Below are positions 8,540-13,046 of a DNA stretch of 64,000 nt, piece by piece. Source of the DNA: Patescibacteria group bacterium (GTDB lineage Bacteria; Patescibacteriota; Patescibacteriia; JACRDY01). Location: NCBI GenBank assembly GCA_041653535.1, contig JBAZFH010000001.1, forward strand, positions 214,175 to 278,174. Reading direction: 5' to 3'. A model generated the notes under the pieces. That model saw nothing but the letters and a program-made list of their open reading frames with translations. It was not told the origin of the DNA and ran no database searches. The number at the start of each line of letters is the position of its first letter. Positions within the stretch are counted from its first letter, which is position 1. A program made the position numbers and the translations under genes.

Positions 8540-8616
8540 GGCCTCATCGTCTAATGGTTAGCCCGCCTCGACTCGCCGATGGCGAAGCCGAGGCGAGGCG
8601 GGGACGCCAGGTTCTC
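8540..8616 (+). pseudogene. tRNA-Glu 5' half (to anticodon loop TTCTC) interrupted in the D-loop by a 41-nt GC-rich hairpin (8562-8602)
   Basis: TCGTCTAATGGTTAG, insert, GACGCCAGGTTCTC matches positions 8-35 of the intact tRNA at 9192. The insert CCCGCCTCG...CGAGGCGGG is a perfect inverted repeat. Acceptor 5' strand GGCCTCA cannot pair with the downstream 3' strand. Confidence 0.75.
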
Positions 8617-8887
8617 TATGATGTATATAATTTATTGGTTAATTGATTTTGACAATAATAAAACCTATGTTGGTTTTACTGATGATTTAAAAAAGAGAAT
8701 CGCCGATCATAAATATGGCAAAACCAAAACAACGAGGAAATTTAAAATATCCAAGGTTTATATTTTAGAGCGGGTTGAAACTTTAGAGCTAGCTAGAAAA
8801 AGAGAAAAATATTGGAAGTCGGCGGCTGGCAGGAGAAAGTTAAAGGAGAAGTTTAGTAAAATTATGGCGCTATCGTCTAATGGTTAG
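8579..8887 (+). CDS. small GIY-YIG nuclease-superfamily protein, copy 1 (true start probably ATG 8618)
   Basis: YIIYWL...KTYVGFTDDLKKRIADH..G...KYWK is a GIY-YIG core. The track start lies inside the tRNA-derived hairpin; MMYIIYW at 8618 is more plausible. The last 6 codons plus TAG stop are encoded by the 5' end of the next tRNA copy (GCGCTATCGTCTAATGGTTAG). Confidence 0.75.
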   Translation: MAKPRRGGDARFSMMYIIYWLIDFDNNKTYVGFTDDLKKRIADHKYGKTKTTRKFKISKVYILERVETLELARKREKYWKSAAGRRKLKEKFSKIMALSSNG

Positions 8888-8942
8888 CCCGCCTCGACTC
8901 GCCGATGGCGAAGCCGAGGCGAGGCGGGGACGCCAGGTTCTC
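8866..8942 (+). pseudogene. tRNA-Glu 5' half, copy 2, with the same 41-nt hairpin insert
   Basis: Identical to copy 1 except for acceptor strand GGCGCTA, which matches the intact tRNA. Confidence 0.75.
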
Positions 8943-9213
8943 TATGATGTATATAATTTATTGGTTAATTGATTTTGACAATAATAAAACCTATGTTGGT
9001 TTTACTGATGATTTAAAAAAGAGAATCGCCGATCATAAATATGGCAAAACCAAAACAACGAGGAAATTTAAAATATCCAAGGTTTATATTTTAGAGCGGG
9101 TTGAAACTTTAGAGCTAGCTAGAAAAAGAGAAAAATATTGGAAGTCGGCGGCTGGCAGGAGAAAGTTAAAGGAGAAGTTTAGTAAAATTATGGCGCTATC
9201 GTCTAATGGTTAG
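8905..9213 (+). CDS. small GIY-YIG nuclease-superfamily protein, copy 2 (identical protein; probable start 8944)
   Basis: Protein 100% identical to copy 1. Its stop codon TAG 9211-9213 is the GGTTAG of the intact tRNA-Glu D-loop. Confidence 0.75.
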   Translation: MAKPRRGGDARFSMMYIIYWLIDFDNNKTYVGFTDDLKKRIADHKYGKTKTTRKFKISKVYILERVETLELARKREKYWKSAAGRRKLKEKFSKIMALSSNG

Positions 9214-9263
9214 GACGCCAGGTTCTCATCCTGGTAATCGGGGTTCGATTCCCCGTAGCGTCA
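9192..9263 (+). tRNA. tRNA-Glu (anticodon CUC), no encoded CCA
   Basis: Manual cloverleaf: acceptor GGCGCTA/TAGCGTC (7 bp, one GU), D stem GTCT/GGAC, anticodon stem CCAGG/CCTGG with loop TTCTCAT, T arm CGGGG-TTCGATT-CCCCG, discriminator A. Confidence 0.85.
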
Positions 9264-9351
9264 TGTACCGATGAGCTGTTCGACCTGCCTGCCGGTAGGC
9301 AGGGAGATGTTAAAGGGTATCCCTTCAGATGAGACTCGGAAGGATTGAAAT
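9264..9351 (+). ncRNA. conserved tRNA-trailer structured element, copy A
   Basis: Begins immediately after the tRNA 3' end. Shares three collinear blocks with copy B at 12498-12585: TACCGATGAGCTGTTCGA, AAGGGTATCC and TTCAGATRAGACTCGGAMGGATTGAAAT. Each copy carries a different internal hairpin. Confidence 0.5.
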
Positions 9352-9367
9352 TTTTCATTTAGAAACC

Positions 9368-9400
9368 AAAACTCCCTTGGAAGATACTCCAGGGAGTTTT
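9368..9400. terminator. bidirectional terminator hairpin
   Basis: AACTCCCTTGG-aagatact-CCAGGGAGTT flanked by A and T runs, between the + strand element and the convergent minus-strand gene. Confidence 0.6.
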
Positions 9401-9417
9401 GTTAGACAGACATACTT

Positions 9418-9942
9418 TTAAGAATTAATATTGGTGTTTGATCCGTCCATCGGGCCGGGTCCGTCAAAATTATTATCTCCTCTCATCGGTCCGTGGCCAG
9501 GTTGGCCGACCATGATCTCGGCGGCAGTTACATTCGTACCATCAACTTCGCCGTGCACCATAATCATGTCATCAACTTTCAAATCGGAAACGGCTAGGGT
9601 GGTTTCAGTTGGTTTTTCACCAGCCTCGCCCCGAGTCATTTCTTTCACAGTGGTGCCGGAAGTGTCAACGGTGTAAGTAACTTCGGTGGCATCTGGACCA
9701 AAACCTTGTTTACCGGTAATGGTGATGGTGGTACCGCTGATAGCGGAAATCTTACCCATAACACCTGGCCGATGTTGATTTCGATCTGGACTTTTTTCAC
9801 CCATCGGTTTGTTTGGTCCGTGGCCAGGTTGGCCGACGTCTGAGGCAGTATTAGTTCTAGCTAAGGCGTAATTTGCTCCGCTTAGAGTTAAAAGAGTTAA
9901 AGCTAGAATGGTTAGGATGAACAGTGATTTTTTGTGTTTCAT
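9418..9942 (-). CDS. secreted beta-strand repeat protein (DUF5666-like domain, 1 copy) with GQPGHGP motifs
   Basis: Signal peptide MKHKKSLFILTILALTLLTLSGANYALA. The domain GKISAISGTTITITGKQGFGPDATEVTYTVDTSGTTV...VSDLKVDDMIMVHGEVDGTNVTAAEIMV is a paralog of the repeats in the next gene. Confidence 0.6.
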   Translation of the reverse strand: MKHKKSLFILTILALTLLTLSGANYALARTNTASDVGQPGHGPNKPMGEKSPDRNQHRPGVMGKISAISGTTITITGKQGFGPDATEVTYTVDTSGTTVKEMTRGEAGEKPTETTLAVSDLKVDDMIMVHGEVDGTNVTAAEIMVGQPGHGPMRGDNNFDGPGPMDGSNTNINS

Positions 9943-10007
9943 AATTCGCTTGCTTGATTATTTTTTTGTTAATTCGACCTTTAGTTTATTTTAATTTCGA
10001 CCTTTTA

Positions 10008-10997
10008 CTATTTACCAAAACTAAATAGTCTGCTAAAAAAGTTACTAATTGAAGAGAAAAATTTAGACAAGAAACCAGTTGACTGTGAATGATCACCTTG
10101 ATTATTGCTTCTACCATTTAGGCCAGGCTGTTCTTGGTTGTCGTTAAGTAATTTTATGCCCTTAGAGATAGAAGCAGCAGTGATGGTTTGGTCGGAGATG
10201 GTTCCAGCTACTTTTAAAGTATCGCCGACGTTAATATCAGAAATACTTAAAGTTTTAGCATTAGAACCAACACCCTCAGTTATGGTAGCACTACTAGTAT
10301 CCACGGTGTAAGTAACATCAGTGGCGTTCTCACCAAATTCTTGCTTGCCAGTTAGAGTAATGGTAGTGTCGTTGATTGCTGTGACGGTGCCAGTGATGCC
10401 GCGCGACTGCTTATTGTCTTTTTTGTTTGGGTTTGAATTGCTTGAGCCGTTTGAATTTGCCGTTCCTACAGTTTTATTTTCTGATTTTTTATTGCTTGCT
10501 ATAGAATCTGTATTTGTGTTAGATCGGTTATTGGGTTTATCATTCATCCCTGGCCCTTGGTCGCCCATTTTGCCATCCATAATGGCAGTCGCCGTAACAG
10601 TCGTTCCGGAAACAGTGCCGGTAATCATTAAGGTGTCACCAACTTGGATATCAGAAACGGAGATAGTGGTTTCCGTTGGCTTAGAGACGTTAGTGTTAGA
10701 GTCAGTGGTAGGAGCAGATATTTTTTTCACCGTAGAGCTACTGGCATCCACGGTGTAAGTAACATCAGTGGCGTTCTCGCCAAATCCTTGCTTGCCGGTC
10801 AAGGTAATAGTAGTGCCGCTAATGTCTGCCACTGTGCCGGTAACACCGGGCGCGGGATGCGCTTGATCTTTTCCTTGGGGTGGTTCGAAATTTTGATCGG
10901 AATTCGCCGTATCGGCCAGAGTGAAATTTACGGTCAAGACACTGACGGCTAAGATCCCCGCTAGCGTCAAAAAAATTAGAGTTTTTCTTTTAGTCAT
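10008..10997 (-). CDS. secreted beta-strand repeat protein (2 x DUF5666-like domain) with low-complexity N/S/T-rich linkers
   Basis: Signal peptide present. Two copies of GxTGTVxxIxxTTITLTGKQxFGENATDVTYTVDxSSxT...SxSDIxVGDTLxxxGTxSxxTxTAxxI. Confidence 0.6.
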   Translation of the reverse strand: MTKRKTLIFLTLAGILAVSVLTVNFTLADTANSDQNFEPPQGKDQAHPAPGVTGTVADISGTTITLTGKQGFGENATDVTYTVDASSSTVKKISAPTTDSNTNVSKPTETTISVSDIQVGDTLMITGTVSGTTVTATAIMDGKMGDQGPGMNDKPNNRSNTNTDSIASNKKSENKTVGTANSNGSSNSNPNKKDNKQSRGITGTVTAINDTTITLTGKQEFGENATDVTYTVDTSSATITEGVGSNAKTLSISDINVGDTLKVAGTISDQTITAASISKGIKLLNDNQEQPGLNGRSNNQGDHSQSTGFLSKFFSSISNFFSRLFSFGK

Positions 10998-11160
10998 AAT
11001 TTTTGAAAGTTGTTTTTTAAATTAAAATGATACCTAGGTATAAAAATATTTCACATCTCGACCGTATTTCCATATATATTAATACGTTTGGGAGGCGACT
11101 TTTGGTGCATTTTTAGGTAAATTATGGTTGGTTATTCTTTGATTTTATTAAGACCTCATC

Positions 11161-11232
11161 GTCTAATGATTAGGATGCAGAGTTCTCATTCTGGTGATTG
11201 GGGCTCGATCTCCCGCGGGGGTTAATTATTAT
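11161..11232 (+). pseudogene. tRNA-Glu-like fragment or degenerate tRNA (5' part conserved to anticodon loop TTCTCAT; 3' acceptor strand does not pair)
   Basis: GACCTCATCGTCTAATGATTAGGA...TTCTCAT resembles copy 1 at 8540. A T-arm-like TGGGG-CTCGATC-TCCCG is present, but no 7-bp acceptor helix can be formed. Confidence 0.5.
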
Positions 11233-11278
11233 ATAAAAAAGACCGAGAATAAATTTCCCGGCTTTTTTATTCTGGCAA

Positions 11279-12331
11279 CTAAACTTTTTTGTACCTCGTC
11301 GTTCGACCTTGCCCTAGCCGCTCTATTTTTTTCAGTTGTAATAGTTTGTCTAATGCTTGAGAAACGGTCGGCCTAGCCACTTTGGTCGCTTTGGCAATTT
11401 CTCCCGGTGTTATTTCTTCACCCGATTCCAGACAACGCCAAACCGCTAACTGTTTTGGCGATAACAGTTTTTTAATATTTTCTGCAGATAGTAGATCTAT
11501 AGCTTGTTTAGCTTGAGTCAGTAAAATATTTAGGAAAAATTTTGTCCAGACCGAAATATCTTCCCTAGCTGCTCCAAAGGTTTTTTGGCTTTGGCGTAAT
11601 GCCAGATAATAGTCAGCCTTATTATCTTCAATCAATTTTTCATGCGAAACATAAGGCATATAAGCATAGCCGTATTTCAGCATCAAGAGATTGGCCAGTA
11701 TCCTAGAAAGCCGACCATTGCCATCTTGGAAAGGGTGGATTTTTAAAAACTCAACTACAAAATTACTGATTATCAGTAAAGGATGGGTTGTCTGCAAAAC
11801 AAGAGCTTCGTTGGTCCAATTCATTAATTCTTGCATTGCCTTGGGCGTTAAATACGCCGGAGTCGGAGCAAACAAAACGCTGATAGTTTTTCCGCTTTCA
11901 TCAAGTATTTCCACTTGATTCTCAATCGCTTTATATTTCCCTCGATGCCGTTCATCCTTATCCGCATACTTTAATAATTCCTTGTGTAAGTGCTTAATAG
12001 TACTTTCAGTAAAGGGGATACTGTTCCAAGAGCTAAAGACATTATCCAACAGTTCGTAGTAGCCCTGGACTTCCTGCTTATCTCGGTCAGCCAATTTTTG
12101 CAAAGATAGCCCGCGCATCAGTTTTTCAATTTCATTGTCAGTCAGCCTTGCTCCTTCAATTCTAGTAGATGCGCCTGTTGAAGTAACCAAAACTGAACGT
12201 TTTAGTCGTCCTAGTGCTTGAGGGTTTAATTGCGCCCCGCCGATCCACTGACCTTTTAGTTCATTAATTTGATTTAGGAGTAGCCAAATATCAGATGACA
12301 AGTTTTTAATCCGCTTTTCAAAATTATTCAT
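11279..12331 (-). CDS. Fic/Doc family protein (AMPylase-type fold) with C-terminal winged-helix DNA-binding domain
   Basis: Fic motif HPFQDGNGRLSR, plus a C-terminal HTH-like region (ITPGEIAKATKVARPTVSQALDKL). Confidence 0.85.
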   Translation of the reverse strand: MNNFEKRIKNLSSDIWLLLNQINELKGQWIGGAQLNPQALGRLKRSVLVTSTGASTRIEGARLTDNEIEKLMRGLSLQKLADRDKQEVQGYYELLDNVFSSWNSIPFTESTIKHLHKELLKYADKDERHRGKYKAIENQVEILDESGKTISVLFAPTPAYLTPKAMQELMNWTNEALVLQTTHPLLIISNFVVEFLKIHPFQDGNGRLSRILANLLMLKYGYAYMPYVSHEKLIEDNKADYYLALRQSQKTFGAAREDISVWTKFFLNILLTQAKQAIDLLSAENIKKLLSPKQLAVWRCLESGEEITPGEIAKATKVARPTVSQALDKLLQLKKIERLGQGRTTRYKKV

Positions 12332-12451
12332 ATAGTTGAAATATGTTAATCTTATGTATTTACTATATGAGATTATAGTAGATTATTTATAACCAGTCAA
12401 GCAATTTTAGGTCTAGATAAAATCCTCTAAAAATATTAGCTAAAATTAGAT

Positions 12452-12497
12452 GACCGCTTAGGGGCGACCCGAAAGGGTTCGATTCTCTTTGCCGTCA
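12452..12497 (+). other. tRNA-like 3' fragment (mini T-arm plus acceptor-like 3' strand GCCGTCA)
   Basis: GGGTTCGATTC T-loop motif within AAAGGG-TTCGATT-CTCTTT, then TTGCCGTCA. No matching 5' half upstream. Confidence 0.4.
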
Positions 12498-12585
12498 TAT
12501 ACCGATGAGCTGTTCGAGAGATGCTGAAGGGTATCCTCACAAAGGAGTCCTTAGGACCTTCAGATAAGACTCGGACGGATTGAAA
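12498..12585 (+). ncRNA. conserved tRNA-trailer structured element, copy B
   Basis: Has the same three conserved blocks as 9264-9351, with a different internal hairpin (GGAGTCC-ttag-GACC). Confidence 0.5.
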
Positions 12586-12629
12586 TATCCTTAGATTTCC
12601 TGGAACAAAAAGCTACCTATTGAATTTAG

Positions 12630-13046
12630 GTGGTTTTTTGTTATGATATTAATGTACTAAATATTATAATAAAAAATATGTCTAACGTAGAAAGGTCAGA
12701 GATGCCTCCTTTGCAAAACTTTGAAGTTCAAAAAATTCCAATTGGAAATGGCTATATCTATAATATATTTTTTAAGTCACCCGAGGAGGCAGAGCAAGCA
12801 ATTAAAGATTTTTGGGGCAATGTCCAGAATGCAGAAAGTATACAACGGAATATTGGTTCTGGCACATTACAGCCACTTAAACACGCGATTACTTTGGGGG
12901 ACAGGACTGAAGCCCGTGATATATCAAAACATCCTGATTCAGAAAAACATCCAGGGATGGCAGTTTATGTAAATTTTAATGGTAACACTATGGCTTTAAG
13001 CCAACGTGGTGAAGAGGCGTTGCGTAAATTAGGCTATATTGAGTAG
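12630..13046 (+). CDS. hypothetical protein (likely start at Met 12678)
   Basis: 138 aa ORF with no recognisable family. Confidence 0.4.
   Translation: MVFCYDINVLNIIIKNMSNVERSEMPPLQNFEVQKIPIGNGYIYNIFFKSPEEAEQAIKDFWGNVQNAESIQRNIGSGTLQPLKHAITLGDRTEARDISKHPDSEKHPGMAVYVNFNGNTMALSQRGEEALRKLGYIE

What the first reader, a model, noticed from the sequence alone, without database searches (positions are those of the whole stretch)
9264..12600. Conserved ~90-nt structured element immediately 3' of tRNA ends, present twice and bracketing a 3.2-kb islet
The 88 nt directly after tRNA-Glu (9264-9351) and the 88 nt after a tRNA-like 3' fragment (12498-12585) share three collinear conserved blocks: TACCGATGAGCTGTTCGA, AAGGGTATCC and TTCAGATRAGACTCGGAMGGATTGAAAT. 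Each copy has a different inserted hairpin between blocks (CCTGCC-tgccggta-GGCAGG vs GGAGTCC-ttag-GACC). Conserved blocks with variable hairpins is the pattern of a structured RNA rather than a simple att duplication. The tRNAs upstream of the two copies differ in their acceptor strands. Between the copies lie two secreted repeat paralogs and a Fic gene, with no integrase. Candidate interpretations: a tRNA-trailer ncRNA or ribozyme-like element, or extended attL/attR of a decayed integrative element that targeted tRNA 3' ends.
Basis: seen in the sequence. Interest (0 to 1): 0.7.

Follow-up and report, generated by a model that had tools for sequence, protein, structure and literature searches.

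The report
Prophage junction repeats beside tRNA-Glu
The two ~90-base look-alike stretches are real and fold like an RNA hairpin, but they are best read as the left and right scars of a mostly deleted phage-like element that inserted next to the tRNA-Glu gene of a Patescibacteria (CPR) bacterium, carrying a small, previously uncatalogued structured module as part of its attachment site.

Summary
Copy A (9264-9353) follows tRNA-Glu(CUC). Copy B (12498-12588) follows a degenerate tRNA 3' piece. They are 90% identical outside two unrelated hairpin insertions, and each is followed by an intrinsic terminator. There is no Rfam match.

Five more copies turned up in related Patescibacteria DNA.
- A phage-like contig carries: large serine integrase, then the module plus the same pseudo-tRNA piece, then an 89%-identical Fic gene (attP-like form).
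- Another contig has a genuine tRNA-Glu, the module, and a 95%-identical integrase (attL-like form). A second copy sits after its excisionase-like gene.
- One Falkowbacteria MAG has tRNA-Glu plus the module with no mobile genes nearby.
- One diverged copy lies upstream of a lipoprotein gene.
- Most relatives have tRNA-Glu followed directly by a terminator.

So A and B bracket a decayed integrated element: Fic remains and the integrase is gone.

Across seven copies the module keeps one fold (P1, internal loop, P2). Five of nine P2 pairs change on both sides, and many G-U pairs favour a + strand RNA. A 23-nt stretch is invariant in all tRNA-linked copies, which suggests an additional DNA-level role as a recombination core.

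The RNA's function is unknown. The family looks rare in what could be searched.

The parts
9192..9263 (+). tRNA-Glu(CUC), intact, no encoded CCA; left anchor of the junction
   Evidence: ARAGORN; Rfam tRNA 64.6 bits
9264..9353 (+). Copy A of the module (type 1). P1 5' strand 9279-9283 plus 9304; internal loop AGA 9305-9307; P2 9308-9316 paired with 9322-9330; GA of the loop 9333-9334; P1 3' strand 9335-9340; tail GGATTGAAAT 9342-9351
   Evidence: cmsearch R1 74.6 bits and R2 70.1 bits; alignments A2 and A5
9284..9303 (+). 20-nt GC-rich hairpin inserted into P1 of copy A. L004 has a different hairpin at the same site
9368..9404 (+). Intrinsic terminator after copy A (A-tract, stem 9375-9394, T-tract)
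9418..10997 (-). Two secreted DUF5666 repeat paralogs (9418-9942, 10008-10997). Origin is unresolved (host or cargo); no match in the related phage-like contig
   Evidence: Pfam; tblastn
11152..11270 (+). Decayed tRNA-Glu copy (11152-11223; acceptor strands no longer complementary) followed by a hairpin terminator (11233-11270). This repeats the 'tRNA-Glu then terminator' layout seen in relatives without the module
   Evidence: (D3, D4, I18); relatives
11279..12331 (-). Fic/DOC protein with a C-terminal wHTH. It is 89% identical to the Fic gene of phage-like contig L068/L069 and is the only gene shared with that contig
12332..12448 (.). Fic upstream region, conserved at about 85-90% with L068. 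The best promoter match is on the - strand (12400 to 12372, 11 of 12), facing Fic. No good + strand promoter precedes copy B
   Evidence: alignment A3
12449..12497 (+). Pseudo-tRNA arm: a T-arm-like AAGGG-TTCGATT-CTCTT plus an acceptor-3'-like TGCCGTC-A. It has no 5' half. It is 92% identical (with the start of the module) to the arm next to the integrase-side module in L068. It has no consistent fold
12498..12588 (+). Copy B of the module (type 1). P1 12513-12518 paired with 12570-12575; P2 12522-12530 paired with 12557-12565; loop with a ~22-nt inserted hairpin 12531-12556
   Evidence: cmsearch R1 84 bits and R2 76.8 bits; MFE fold recovers P1 and P2
12607..12641 (+). Intrinsic terminator after copy B; unrelated in sequence to the terminators of L068 and L165
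12501..12523 (+). 23-nt stretch ACCGATGAGCTGTTCGAGAGATG, invariant in all five tRNA-linked copies. In copy A it is split by the hairpin into 9267-9283 and 9304-9309. Candidate DNA recombination core

Best explanation
Copies A and B are the left and right junction repeats (attL-like and attR-like) of a phage-derived integrative element that entered at the 3' end of tRNA-Glu and has since decayed to a 3.2-kb remnant. The repeated unit is the element's attachment-site module.

**Mechanism proposed**
- In intact relatives the module lies between the tRNA end (or a pseudo-tRNA arm in the unintegrated form) and the 3' end of a convergent large serine integrase gene.
- At the DNA level, the invariant 23-nt stretch just after the tRNA end most likely contains or abuts the recombination core shared by the phage and host sites. 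This is inferred.
- At the RNA level, the module is transcribed as the tRNA's 3' trailer. It folds into a P1, internal loop, P2 hairpin, followed by a small hairpin and an intrinsic terminator.
- I infer that it acts as a 3'-end formation and insulation cassette. It replaces the tRNA's own terminator after integration and keeps tRNA-promoter transcription from running antisense into the integrase gene.
- A paralogous copy plays the same 3'-end role after the excisionase-like gene.

**Shown:** the repeats, the fold conservation, and the association with the integrase, Fic and tRNA-Glu.
**Inferred:** the crossover position, transcription, and the insulation role.
For: 1. The repeats are real and are each other's closest relatives: 90% identity, against 75-84% to other type-1 copies.
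2. L068/L069/L070 is a phage-like contig with large and small terminase subunits, a ParB-methylase and an integrase. Its order is Fic(-), pseudo-tRNA arm, module, terminator, convergent large serine integrase. Fic is 89% identical to the window's Fic. The arm plus the start of the module is 92% identical to the window over 91 nt. Homology stops at about the end of the module.
3. L165 carries an integrase 95% identical to L068's. Its order is genuine tRNA-Glu 3' end, module, small hairpin, terminator, convergent integrase. The integrase-side flank is about 90% identical to L068's by my own base count on the printed sequences.
4. The geometry matches Campbell-type integration: the Fic side carries the pseudo-tRNA arm (copy B) and the tRNA side carries copy A.
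5. Sites without the module exist. In L087, L091/L092, L094 and L004, murF and tRNA-Glu are followed directly by a terminator. In L094, DUF5320 lies about 0.75 kb downstream of tRNA-Glu, against about 4.1 kb in the window.
6. The same integrase clade sits convergent to tRNA genes in 13 of 60 IMG/VR loci. In 5 of them the tRNA lies 130-200 nt beyond the integrase stop codon.
7. Fold conservation: 90% of cells are paired; 5 of 9 P2 pairs change on both sides; 0 of 500 shuffles reach the covariation score; slid controls give 24-57% paired. RNAalifold finds the same P1 and P2 independently. MFE folds of 6 of 7 copies recover them. There are 27 G-U cells, with 90% paired on the + strand against 74% on the - strand.
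8. Six of seven copies are followed by a terminator on the same strand.
Against: - No integrase, excisionase or other phage gene remains in the window except Fic. The origin of the two DUF5666 genes is unknown.
- GC content does not mark the islet.
- Canonical large serine recombinases exchange at a 2-bp core and do not leave ~110-nt repeats. A full module at both junctions needs one of three things: a host site that already carried the module (as in L002, which has tRNA-Glu plus the module with no mobile genes), homologous recombination with an older scar, or a Ccr/SCC-like shared core.
- The P2 segment does not fit either candidate crossover position cleanly. By my base count, L165a and L068 are 62% identical in that segment while their flanks are about 90-100% identical. 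The crossover therefore cannot be placed.
- No + strand promoter is evident before copy B.
- Only seven copies from five genomic sources support the fold, and no expression data exist.
- The insulation role is inference only.
Confidence: 0.65

Rival explanations
1. The module is a host-native small RNA gene: a tRNA-Glu 3'-trailer sRNA released by RNase Z and ended by the terminator. Copy B is simply a second gene copy, and the phage copies were captured from hosts. Under this reading the mobile-element link is secondary.
For: - L002 has tRNA-Glu(UUC), the module and a terminator, then glnA and ordinary host genes. No mobile genes lie within 10 kb.
- Fold conservation and G-U bias.
- Terminators follow both window copies.
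Against: - Six relatives with the same murF and tRNA-Glu synteny lack the module.
- Four of seven copies are physically linked to an integrase, excisionase or phage Fic.
- Copy B has no functional tRNA and no visible promoter upstream.
- The 5' strand is invariant while its pairing partner drifts, which is not how a purely structural helix evolves.
Confidence: 0.15
2. The element is purely a DNA-level site. The 'hairpin' is an imperfect palindrome bound by the integrase or the HTH/excisionase-like protein, and the apparent covariation reflects symmetric half-sites. No RNA function exists.
For: - The 23-nt stretch is invariant.
- The element sits directly beside the integrase gene, and a second copy sits beside the excisionase-like gene.
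- Copies within one genome share the same P2 top: AAGGGTATCC in the window, AAGGATACCCTT in L165a and L165b. A genome-specific DNA-binding protein would produce that pattern.
Against: - 27 of 126 paired cells are G-U. These would be A-C mismatches in a symmetric DNA site. Pairing is 90% on the + strand and 74% on the - strand.
- Long hairpins inserted at three different positions are tolerated, including the centre of the putative palindrome in copy B.
- Six of seven copies keep the same orientation relative to a following terminator.
- The L004 copy lies next to neither an integrase nor an HTH gene.
Confidence: 0.12
3. The module is a riboswitch-like or protein-dependent attenuator: an aptamer followed by a terminator that controls read-through into the downstream gene.
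For: - The structured domain is followed by a terminator, and a co-directional ORF follows in 4 of 7 copies. These are winB with a 122-aa ORF, L002 with glnA, L165b with a 200-aa ORF, and L004 with a lipoprotein gene and no terminator.
- The internal loop is strictly conserved: AGA opposite NNGA.
Against: - The downstream genes are unrelated to each other. Three copies face convergent genes.
- I saw no antiterminator pairing, though I checked only by eye.
- No Rfam riboswitch family matches.
- The tRNA-linked position is atypical for a leader.
Confidence: 0.05
4. The module is a self-cleaving ribozyme that trims the tRNA 3' end.
For: It starts 3 nt after the discriminator base. It contains CCGAUGAG and GAAA strings reminiscent of a hammerhead core.
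Against: - There is no Rfam hit to the hammerhead, HDV-like, hatchet, pistol, twister or any other family, even at E<=10.
- The hammerhead's invariant U4 is C here, and the spacing to GAAA does not fit (my reading).
- Type-2 copies lack the CCGAUGAG stretch entirely yet keep the rest of the module.
Confidence: 0.02

Closest known systems
Integrative elements and prophages at tRNA/tmRNA gene 3' ends, flanked by attL/attR direct repeats with a partial tRNA copy (textbook; my own knowledge, e.g. Williams 2002)
   Same: - An intact tRNA at one junction and a tRNA 3' fragment at the other, in direct orientation.
- Relatives carry an integrase next to the tRNA-side junction.
- Sites without the module exist in related genomes.
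- The locus holds several further scars: the pseudo-tRNA-Glu, and the 17-nt duplicate of the tRNA 3' end in L094.
   Different: - The repeat extends ~90 nt beyond the tRNA, is only 90% identical, and carries indels.
- The fragment at the far junction is not a copy of the resident tRNA's 3' end. It is a diverged mimic carried by the phage.
- The recombinase in relatives is a large serine recombinase, not the usual tyrosine integrase.
SCCmec/Ccr-type large serine recombinase elements at the 3' end of rlmH, with shared integration-site sequences and tandem composite arrays (my own knowledge)
   Same: A large serine recombinase whose donor and target sites share a conserved core. Integration therefore leaves direct repeats and allows accretion of remnants at one hot spot.
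   Different: The target here is the trailer of a tRNA gene. The repeat is much longer and is RNA-structured. No Ccr homology was tested. The crossover has not been mapped.
tRNA 3' external-transcribed-spacer sRNAs such as 3'ETS-leuZ of E. coli (my own knowledge)
   Same: An RNA lying between a tRNA 3' end and the operon terminator. It would be released by tRNA 3' processing.
   Different: No evidence for transcription, processing or a target here. This module is linked to mobile DNA and is absent from most relatives' tRNA-Glu operons.
Phage cis-acting transcript elements near terminators, such as HK022 put RNA and the EAR element (processive antitermination; my own knowledge)
   Same: A phage-borne structured RNA of about 70 nt placed just upstream of intrinsic terminators. 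This is a possible 'works like' analogy.
   Different: No sequence or Rfam similarity. put has two stem-loops, while this is one interrupted hairpin. The direction of any effect (termination or read-through) is unknown. The analogy is untested.
Rickettsia palindromic elements and other small GC-rich palindromic insertions (my own knowledge)
   Same: Unrelated GC-rich hairpins sit at three different tolerated sites of the module and in the D arm of tRNA-Glu copies.
   Different: This explains only the variable hairpins, not the conserved module. No family relationship among the hairpins was established.

Membership tests
attL/attR junctions of a tRNA-targeting integrative element | Intact tRNA at one end and a partial tRNA 3' piece at the other, same orientation | tested here: met
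   tRNA-Glu at 9192-9263. Pseudo-tRNA arm at 12449-12497, not called as a tRNA.
attL/attR junctions of a tRNA-targeting integrative element | Direct repeats bounding the insert | tested here: met
   The repeat runs from the T-arm to the end of the module. It is 90% identical over shared columns and is far above chance. It is not identical, and each copy has its own insertion.
attL/attR junctions of a tRNA-targeting integrative element | Integrase gene inside the insert, next to a junction | tested here: not met
   No integrase remnant in the window (tblastn). The feature is met in relatives: L165 (tRNA-Glu, module, integrase) and L068/L069.
attL/attR junctions of a tRNA-targeting integrative element | Unoccupied site in related genomes | tested here: met
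   L087, L091/L092, L094 and L004 have murF and tRNA-Glu followed directly by a terminator. In L094, DUF5320 lies about 0.75 kb downstream, against about 4.1 kb here. No same-species empty site was available.
attL/attR junctions of a tRNA-targeting integrative element | Insert shares genes with an independent mobile element | tested here: met
   Fic plus its upstream region plus the pseudo-tRNA arm are about 89-92% identical to a contig with terminase, ParB-methylase and integrase genes. Only this ~1.3-kb block is shared.
attL/attR junctions of a tRNA-targeting integrative element | Atypical base composition of the insert | tested here: not met
   GC is 0.37-0.48 inside against 0.33-0.49 outside. 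This test is weak for elements that share the host's composition.
Canonical large serine recombinase att site | 40-50 bp imperfect inverted repeat around a 2-bp crossover, with no long flanking repeat | tested here: inconclusive
   A large serine recombinase is adjacent in relatives. The core has only weak dyad symmetry (my reading). The ~110-nt repeat is not what a canonical site leaves. The crossover is not mappable.
Any Rfam 15 family (riboswitches, ribozymes, sRNAs, tmRNA, SRP RNA and others) | Covariance-model match at or near the gathering score | tested here: not met
   Nothing overlaps the module in the window at gathering score or at E<=10. Nothing in L002, L004, L006 or L068 at gathering score. 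Nothing in L165 or L068 at E<=1.
Hammerhead ribozyme | Core CUGANGA ... GAAA ... with three stems in register | tested here: not met
   The sequence reads CCGAUGA (U4 is C). Extra bases separate the stem from GAAA. Type-2 copies lack the stretch. No RF00008 or RF00163 hit.
Conserved structured RNA (generic criteria) | One fold kept across diverged copies, with compensatory changes | tested here: met
   90% of cells paired. Five pairs change on both sides, all in P2. 0 of 500 shuffles reach the covariation score. Slid controls give 24-57% paired. RNAalifold gives the same fold. Only 7 sequences were available. P1 varies on one side only.
Conserved structured RNA (generic criteria) | Strand-specific pairing (G-U pairs) | tested here: met
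   27 G-U cells. 90% paired on the + strand against 74% on the - strand.
Conserved structured RNA (generic criteria) | Evidence of transcription | not testable with these tools
   Indirect only: a tRNA promoter upstream of A, terminators downstream of both copies, and no clear promoter before B.
Terminator-type riboswitch | Consistent class of downstream gene | tested here: not met
   Downstream genes are glnA, a lipoprotein gene, two unknown ORFs, or convergent genes.

The most novel reading that the evidence does not exclude
The module is a phage-encoded cis-acting RNA that couples integration state to recombinase expression. Once joined to the strong tRNA-Glu promoter, its transcript (trailer RNA plus terminator, or regulated read-through) controls antisense transcription into the convergent large serine integrase gene. 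The paralog after the excisionase-like gene does the same for the excision arm. The same sequence doubles as the DNA recombination core. This would be a new class of RNA element built into the attachment site of Patescibacteria phages.
Probability: 0.15. Interest if true: 0.7.

Novelty: new variant of a known kind. Interest (0 to 1): 0.42.

Why it matters
- **Lysogeny in Patescibacteria.** Temperate phages and integration sites of this phylum are poorly characterised. This locus, with L165 and L069, gives a concrete pairing of phage-side and host-side sites (tRNA-Glu) for an abundant clade of large serine integrases. Thousands of homologs at 60% identity or more appeared.
- **Target preference.** The data suggest these serine integrases, unusually, prefer tRNA gene ends.
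- **An uncatalogued RNA-like module.** It has a strictly conserved internal loop and sits inside an attachment site. If transcribed, it would be an example of a mobile element supplying a replacement 3' trailer and terminator to the tRNA operon it interrupts.
- **Annotation.** The islet should be flagged as a mobile-element remnant, and the tRNA-like fragment should not be called as a tRNA gene.

Tried and rejected
1. **Rfam** at gathering score and at permissive E-values found only the tRNAs.
2. **Protein coding.** The conserved blocks fall in different frames in A and B (my reading). The 51-aa - strand ORF at 9203-9358 overlaps the tRNA and is spurious.
3. **Whole-collection pattern scans.**
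   - The GTDB representative scan gave only the L002 contig.
   - The JGI metagenome scan gave one true hit (L068) and three chance hits in coding sequence.
   - Four IMG/VR pattern scans gave only chance hits.
   - These were exact-match scans, so diverged members would be missed.
4. **blastn** of the units against GenBank phages and PLSDB plasmids gave no match.
5. **Fic as a partner of the module** is rejected. Other Fic homologs (78-82% identity; L071-L075) have no module nearby.
6. **Pseudo-tRNA arm as a functional tRNA-like processing signal** is rejected. The two versions do not share a fold, and the T-loop C is mutated in L068.
7. **K-turn reading of the internal loop.** The tandem G-A pairs fit, but the register needs an extra base on the non-bulged strand. 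I do not claim it.
8. **Hammerhead-like reading of CCGAUGAG...GAAA** is rejected (see the membership test).
9. **GC composition of the islet** is uninformative.
10. **Mapping the crossover** by comparing L165, L068, winA and winB failed. The P2 segment evolves in concert within genomes and conflicts with both candidate positions.
11. **SRP RNA, tmRNA and glutamine-riboswitch resemblances** recalled from memory are not supported by any model match.

Full report
**1. What is in the window**

The window comes from a Patescibacteria genome related to Falkowbacteria. Its MurF is identical to that of an NCBI MAG contig of 347 kb, and the nearest named relatives are Candidatus Falkowbacteria.

tRNA-Glu(CUC) lies at 9192-9263 and has no encoded CCA. 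The 90 nt after it form copy A (9264-9353). Copy B (12498-12588) is the 91 nt after a tRNA-like 3' piece at 12449-12497.

- Outside one private hairpin insertion per copy, A and B are 90% identical.
- The similarity begins inside the T-arm (repeat D5).
- Each copy is followed about 20 nt later by an intrinsic terminator on the + strand. The unit is therefore tRNA (or fragment), module, terminator.
- Between the copies lie two DUF5666 secreted paralogs, a decayed tRNA-Glu with its own terminator (11152-11270), and a Fic gene.
- No Rfam family matches the module, even at E<=10.

**2. Relatives of the host locus**

The murF and tRNA-Glu synteny is conserved in every relative fetched.

- In L087, L091/L092, L094 and L004 the tRNA is followed directly by a terminator, with no module.
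- L006 has a different structured spacer.
- Only L002, a Falkowbacteria MAG with 75% MurF identity, has tRNA-Glu(UUC), the module and a terminator. glnA and ordinary host genes follow.
- L094 is the closest relative. It carries DUF5320 about 0.75 kb after tRNA-Glu, against about 4.1 kb in the window. It also has a 17-nt duplicate of the tRNA 3' end, which is another integration scar.

The 3' side of tRNA-Glu is therefore an insertion hot spot in this clade. The 3.2-kb islet is extra DNA relative to the nearest relative.

**3. Copies on mobile DNA**

The single metagenome scan gave one true hit, L068 (also fetched as L069 and L070). Its order is:

- Fic(-), 89% identical to the window's Fic;
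- the same pseudo-tRNA arm;
- the module, a small hairpin and a bidirectional terminator;
- a convergent large serine recombinase (Resolvase, Recombinase and Zn-ribbon domains).

The contig also encodes a ParB-methylase and both terminase subunits, so it is phage-like. Homology with the window runs from Fic through the arm to about the end of the module (92% over 91 nt), then stops. Nothing else from that contig is present in the window.

A second contig, L165, carries an integrase 95% identical to L068's. It shows the integrated form:

- a genuine tRNA-Glu 3' end (the contig ends inside the tRNA);
- TAT, then the module;
- the same small hairpin and terminator as in L068;
- the convergent integrase.

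L068/L069 therefore looks like the attP form and L165 like attL. In the window, copy B (Fic, phage arm, module) corresponds to attR, and copy A (tRNA-Glu, module) corresponds to attL with its integrase lost.

The same integrase clade lies convergent to tRNA genes (Asp, Gln, Glu, Ser, Arg) in 13 of 60 IMG/VR loci. In 5 of them the tRNA is 130-200 nt beyond the integrase stop codon.

**4. A second type of copy**

L165 has another copy, L165b. It overlaps the 3' end of the excisionase-like HTH_17 gene, which is divergent from the integrase. The same small hairpin and a terminator follow it, and then a 200-aa gene.

L004 has a similar copy after a NYN-domain gene, about 25 nt before a lipoprotein ORF, with no terminator.

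These type-2 copies lack the ACCGATGAGCT extension next to the tRNA but keep GTTCGAGAGA, P2, GA, CTCGGA and GGAT. The core is therefore used in contexts that are not att sites, always at the 3' end of a transcription unit.

**5. Structure**

I analysed seven copies from five genomic sources (alignment A5).

- The fold is P1 (UUCGAG with CYCGRA), an internal loop (AGA opposite NNGA, with G and A invariant), a 9-bp P2 with a short loop, and weaker basal pairs.
- 90% of cells are paired. Five of nine P2 pairs change on both sides. No shuffle of 500 reaches the covariation score. Sliding the partners drops pairing to 24-57%.
- RNAalifold recovers P1 and P2 independently. Single-sequence MFE folds recover them in six of seven copies.
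- 27 paired cells are G-U. Pairing is 90% on the + strand against 74% on the - strand. This argues for a + strand RNA rather than a symmetric DNA site.
- GC-rich hairpins are tolerated at three different positions.

Three caveats apply:

- The number of sequences is small.
- P1 varies on one strand only.
- Copies within one genome share their P2 top (winA/winB; L165a/L165b). This points to gene conversion or co-adaptation to a genome-specific factor.

**6. A DNA-level constraint as well**

The 23 nt ACCGATGAGCTGTTCGAGAGATG are identical in all five tRNA-linked copies from diverged genomes. Their pairing partners drift over the same comparison (U-G to U-A, and A-C mismatches). That pattern fits a recombination core shared by the phage and host sites better than a purely structural helix.

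I could not place the crossover. By my own base count on the sequences printed, L165a and L068 are 100% identical in the core, 62% in the P2 segment, and about 90% beyond it. In winB against L068, the arm and core are about 92-100% identical, the P2 segment is lower, and the terminators are unrelated.

A full module at both junctions of the window is not what a canonical serine recombinase leaves when it acts on a site without the module. It requires one of the following:

- a host site that already had the module (as in L002);
- Campbell-type homologous recombination with an older scar;
- a Ccr/SCC-like shared core.

**7. Verdict**

The reason for two copies bracketing an islet is a decayed phage-derived integrative element at tRNA-Glu (confidence about 0.65).

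The repeated unit is a previously uncatalogued module that is probably both an att core and a transcribed, structured 3'-trailer and terminator cassette. I favour an RNA role in 3'-end formation and insulation of the convergent integrase, but this is inference only.

Ribozyme, riboswitch and chance explanations are unlikely.

The family looks rare. There was one hit among 185,579 species representatives and one in the JGI metagenomes for the exact core. Model R2 found none in 580 kb of related loci beyond the seven copies. Diverged members could not be searched for.

Noticed in passing
window 8540-9263: There is an exact 326-bp tandem duplication (8546-8845 = 8872-9171). Each unit holds the 5' part of tRNA-Glu, interrupted by a 41-nt GC hairpin in the D arm and ending right after the anticodon CTC. 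A 102-aa GIY-YIG ORF follows (8579-8887 and 8905-9213), and its 3' end reads into the next tRNA 5' half. The last copy continues into the intact tRNA and has no hairpin. This looks like a GIY-YIG cassette that inserts in the anticodon loop and brings a replacement 5' half. Alternatively it could be an assembly artefact: the Logan contig L001 breaks 45 nt after murF.
   Followed up: partly
window 8540-8561: An orphan tRNA-Glu 5' fragment has the acceptor strand GGCCUCA. This is complementary to the tRNA-Glu 3' end seen in L165 (UGAGGUC), not to the resident tRNA (GGCGCUA/UAGCGUC). The resident tRNA-Glu may itself have been rebuilt by mobile DNA.
   Followed up: no
window 8562-8602 and 8888-8928; L004 11856-11924; module insertions at window 9284-9303 and 12531-12556, L002 ~11611-11648, L004 ~12670-12699: GC-rich hairpins of 20-41 nt are inserted in the tRNA-Glu D arm and at three different sites of the module. 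The genomes are otherwise about 40% GC. They may be small palindromic mobile elements of the kind known from Rickettsia.
   Followed up: no
L094 2010-2189: In the closest relative, tRNA-Glu and its terminator are followed by about 165 nt of GC-rich palindromic DNA, then a 17-nt exact duplicate of the tRNA 3' end (ATTCCCCGTAGCGTCAT) and a second terminator. This is a separate integration scar at the same tRNA.
   Followed up: no
L006 11912-12000: A different ~90-nt GC-rich structured spacer lies between tRNA-Glu(CUC) and its terminator. It contains GAGACCCGG and CAGACCCGAG and has possible P1-like pairing (AUCGAG with UUCGGU). Neither R1 nor R2 detects it. It may be a very distant relative or unrelated.
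   Followed up: partly
L096, L103, L112, L140, L148 (IMG/VR), 130-200 nt beyond the integrase stop codon: Members of the same large serine integrase clade lie convergent to tRNA-Asp, Gln, Glu(UUC) and Ser genes. Structured spacers and terminators lie in between. The L112 spacer has an AAGGGU...ACCCUU hairpin reminiscent of P2. This suggests a clade of serine integrases that target tRNA gene ends.
   Followed up: partly
window 9418-10997 (- strand): The two DUF5666 secreted proteins share three ~121-nt repeat units (9650, 10285, 10732). The smaller gene (9418-9942) has an exact 23-nt internal repeat, GGTCCGTGGCCAGGTTGGCCGAC, at 9488 and 9815 (encoding GQPGHGP).
   Followed up: no
L165 3329-3397 (- strand): The excisionase-like HTH_17 ORF reads 15 codons into the type-2 module and stops at a TAG inside the P2 3' strand. 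The module therefore overlaps the annotated coding end.
   Followed up: no
L002 2293-2637, L004 11355-11696, L006 11320-11712, L087 2669-3040, L094 1550-1906: A 23S_rRNA_IVP (four-helix-bundle) gene sits next to murF in most relatives. It is absent at that position in the window, where the GIY-YIG cassettes lie instead.
   Followed up: no
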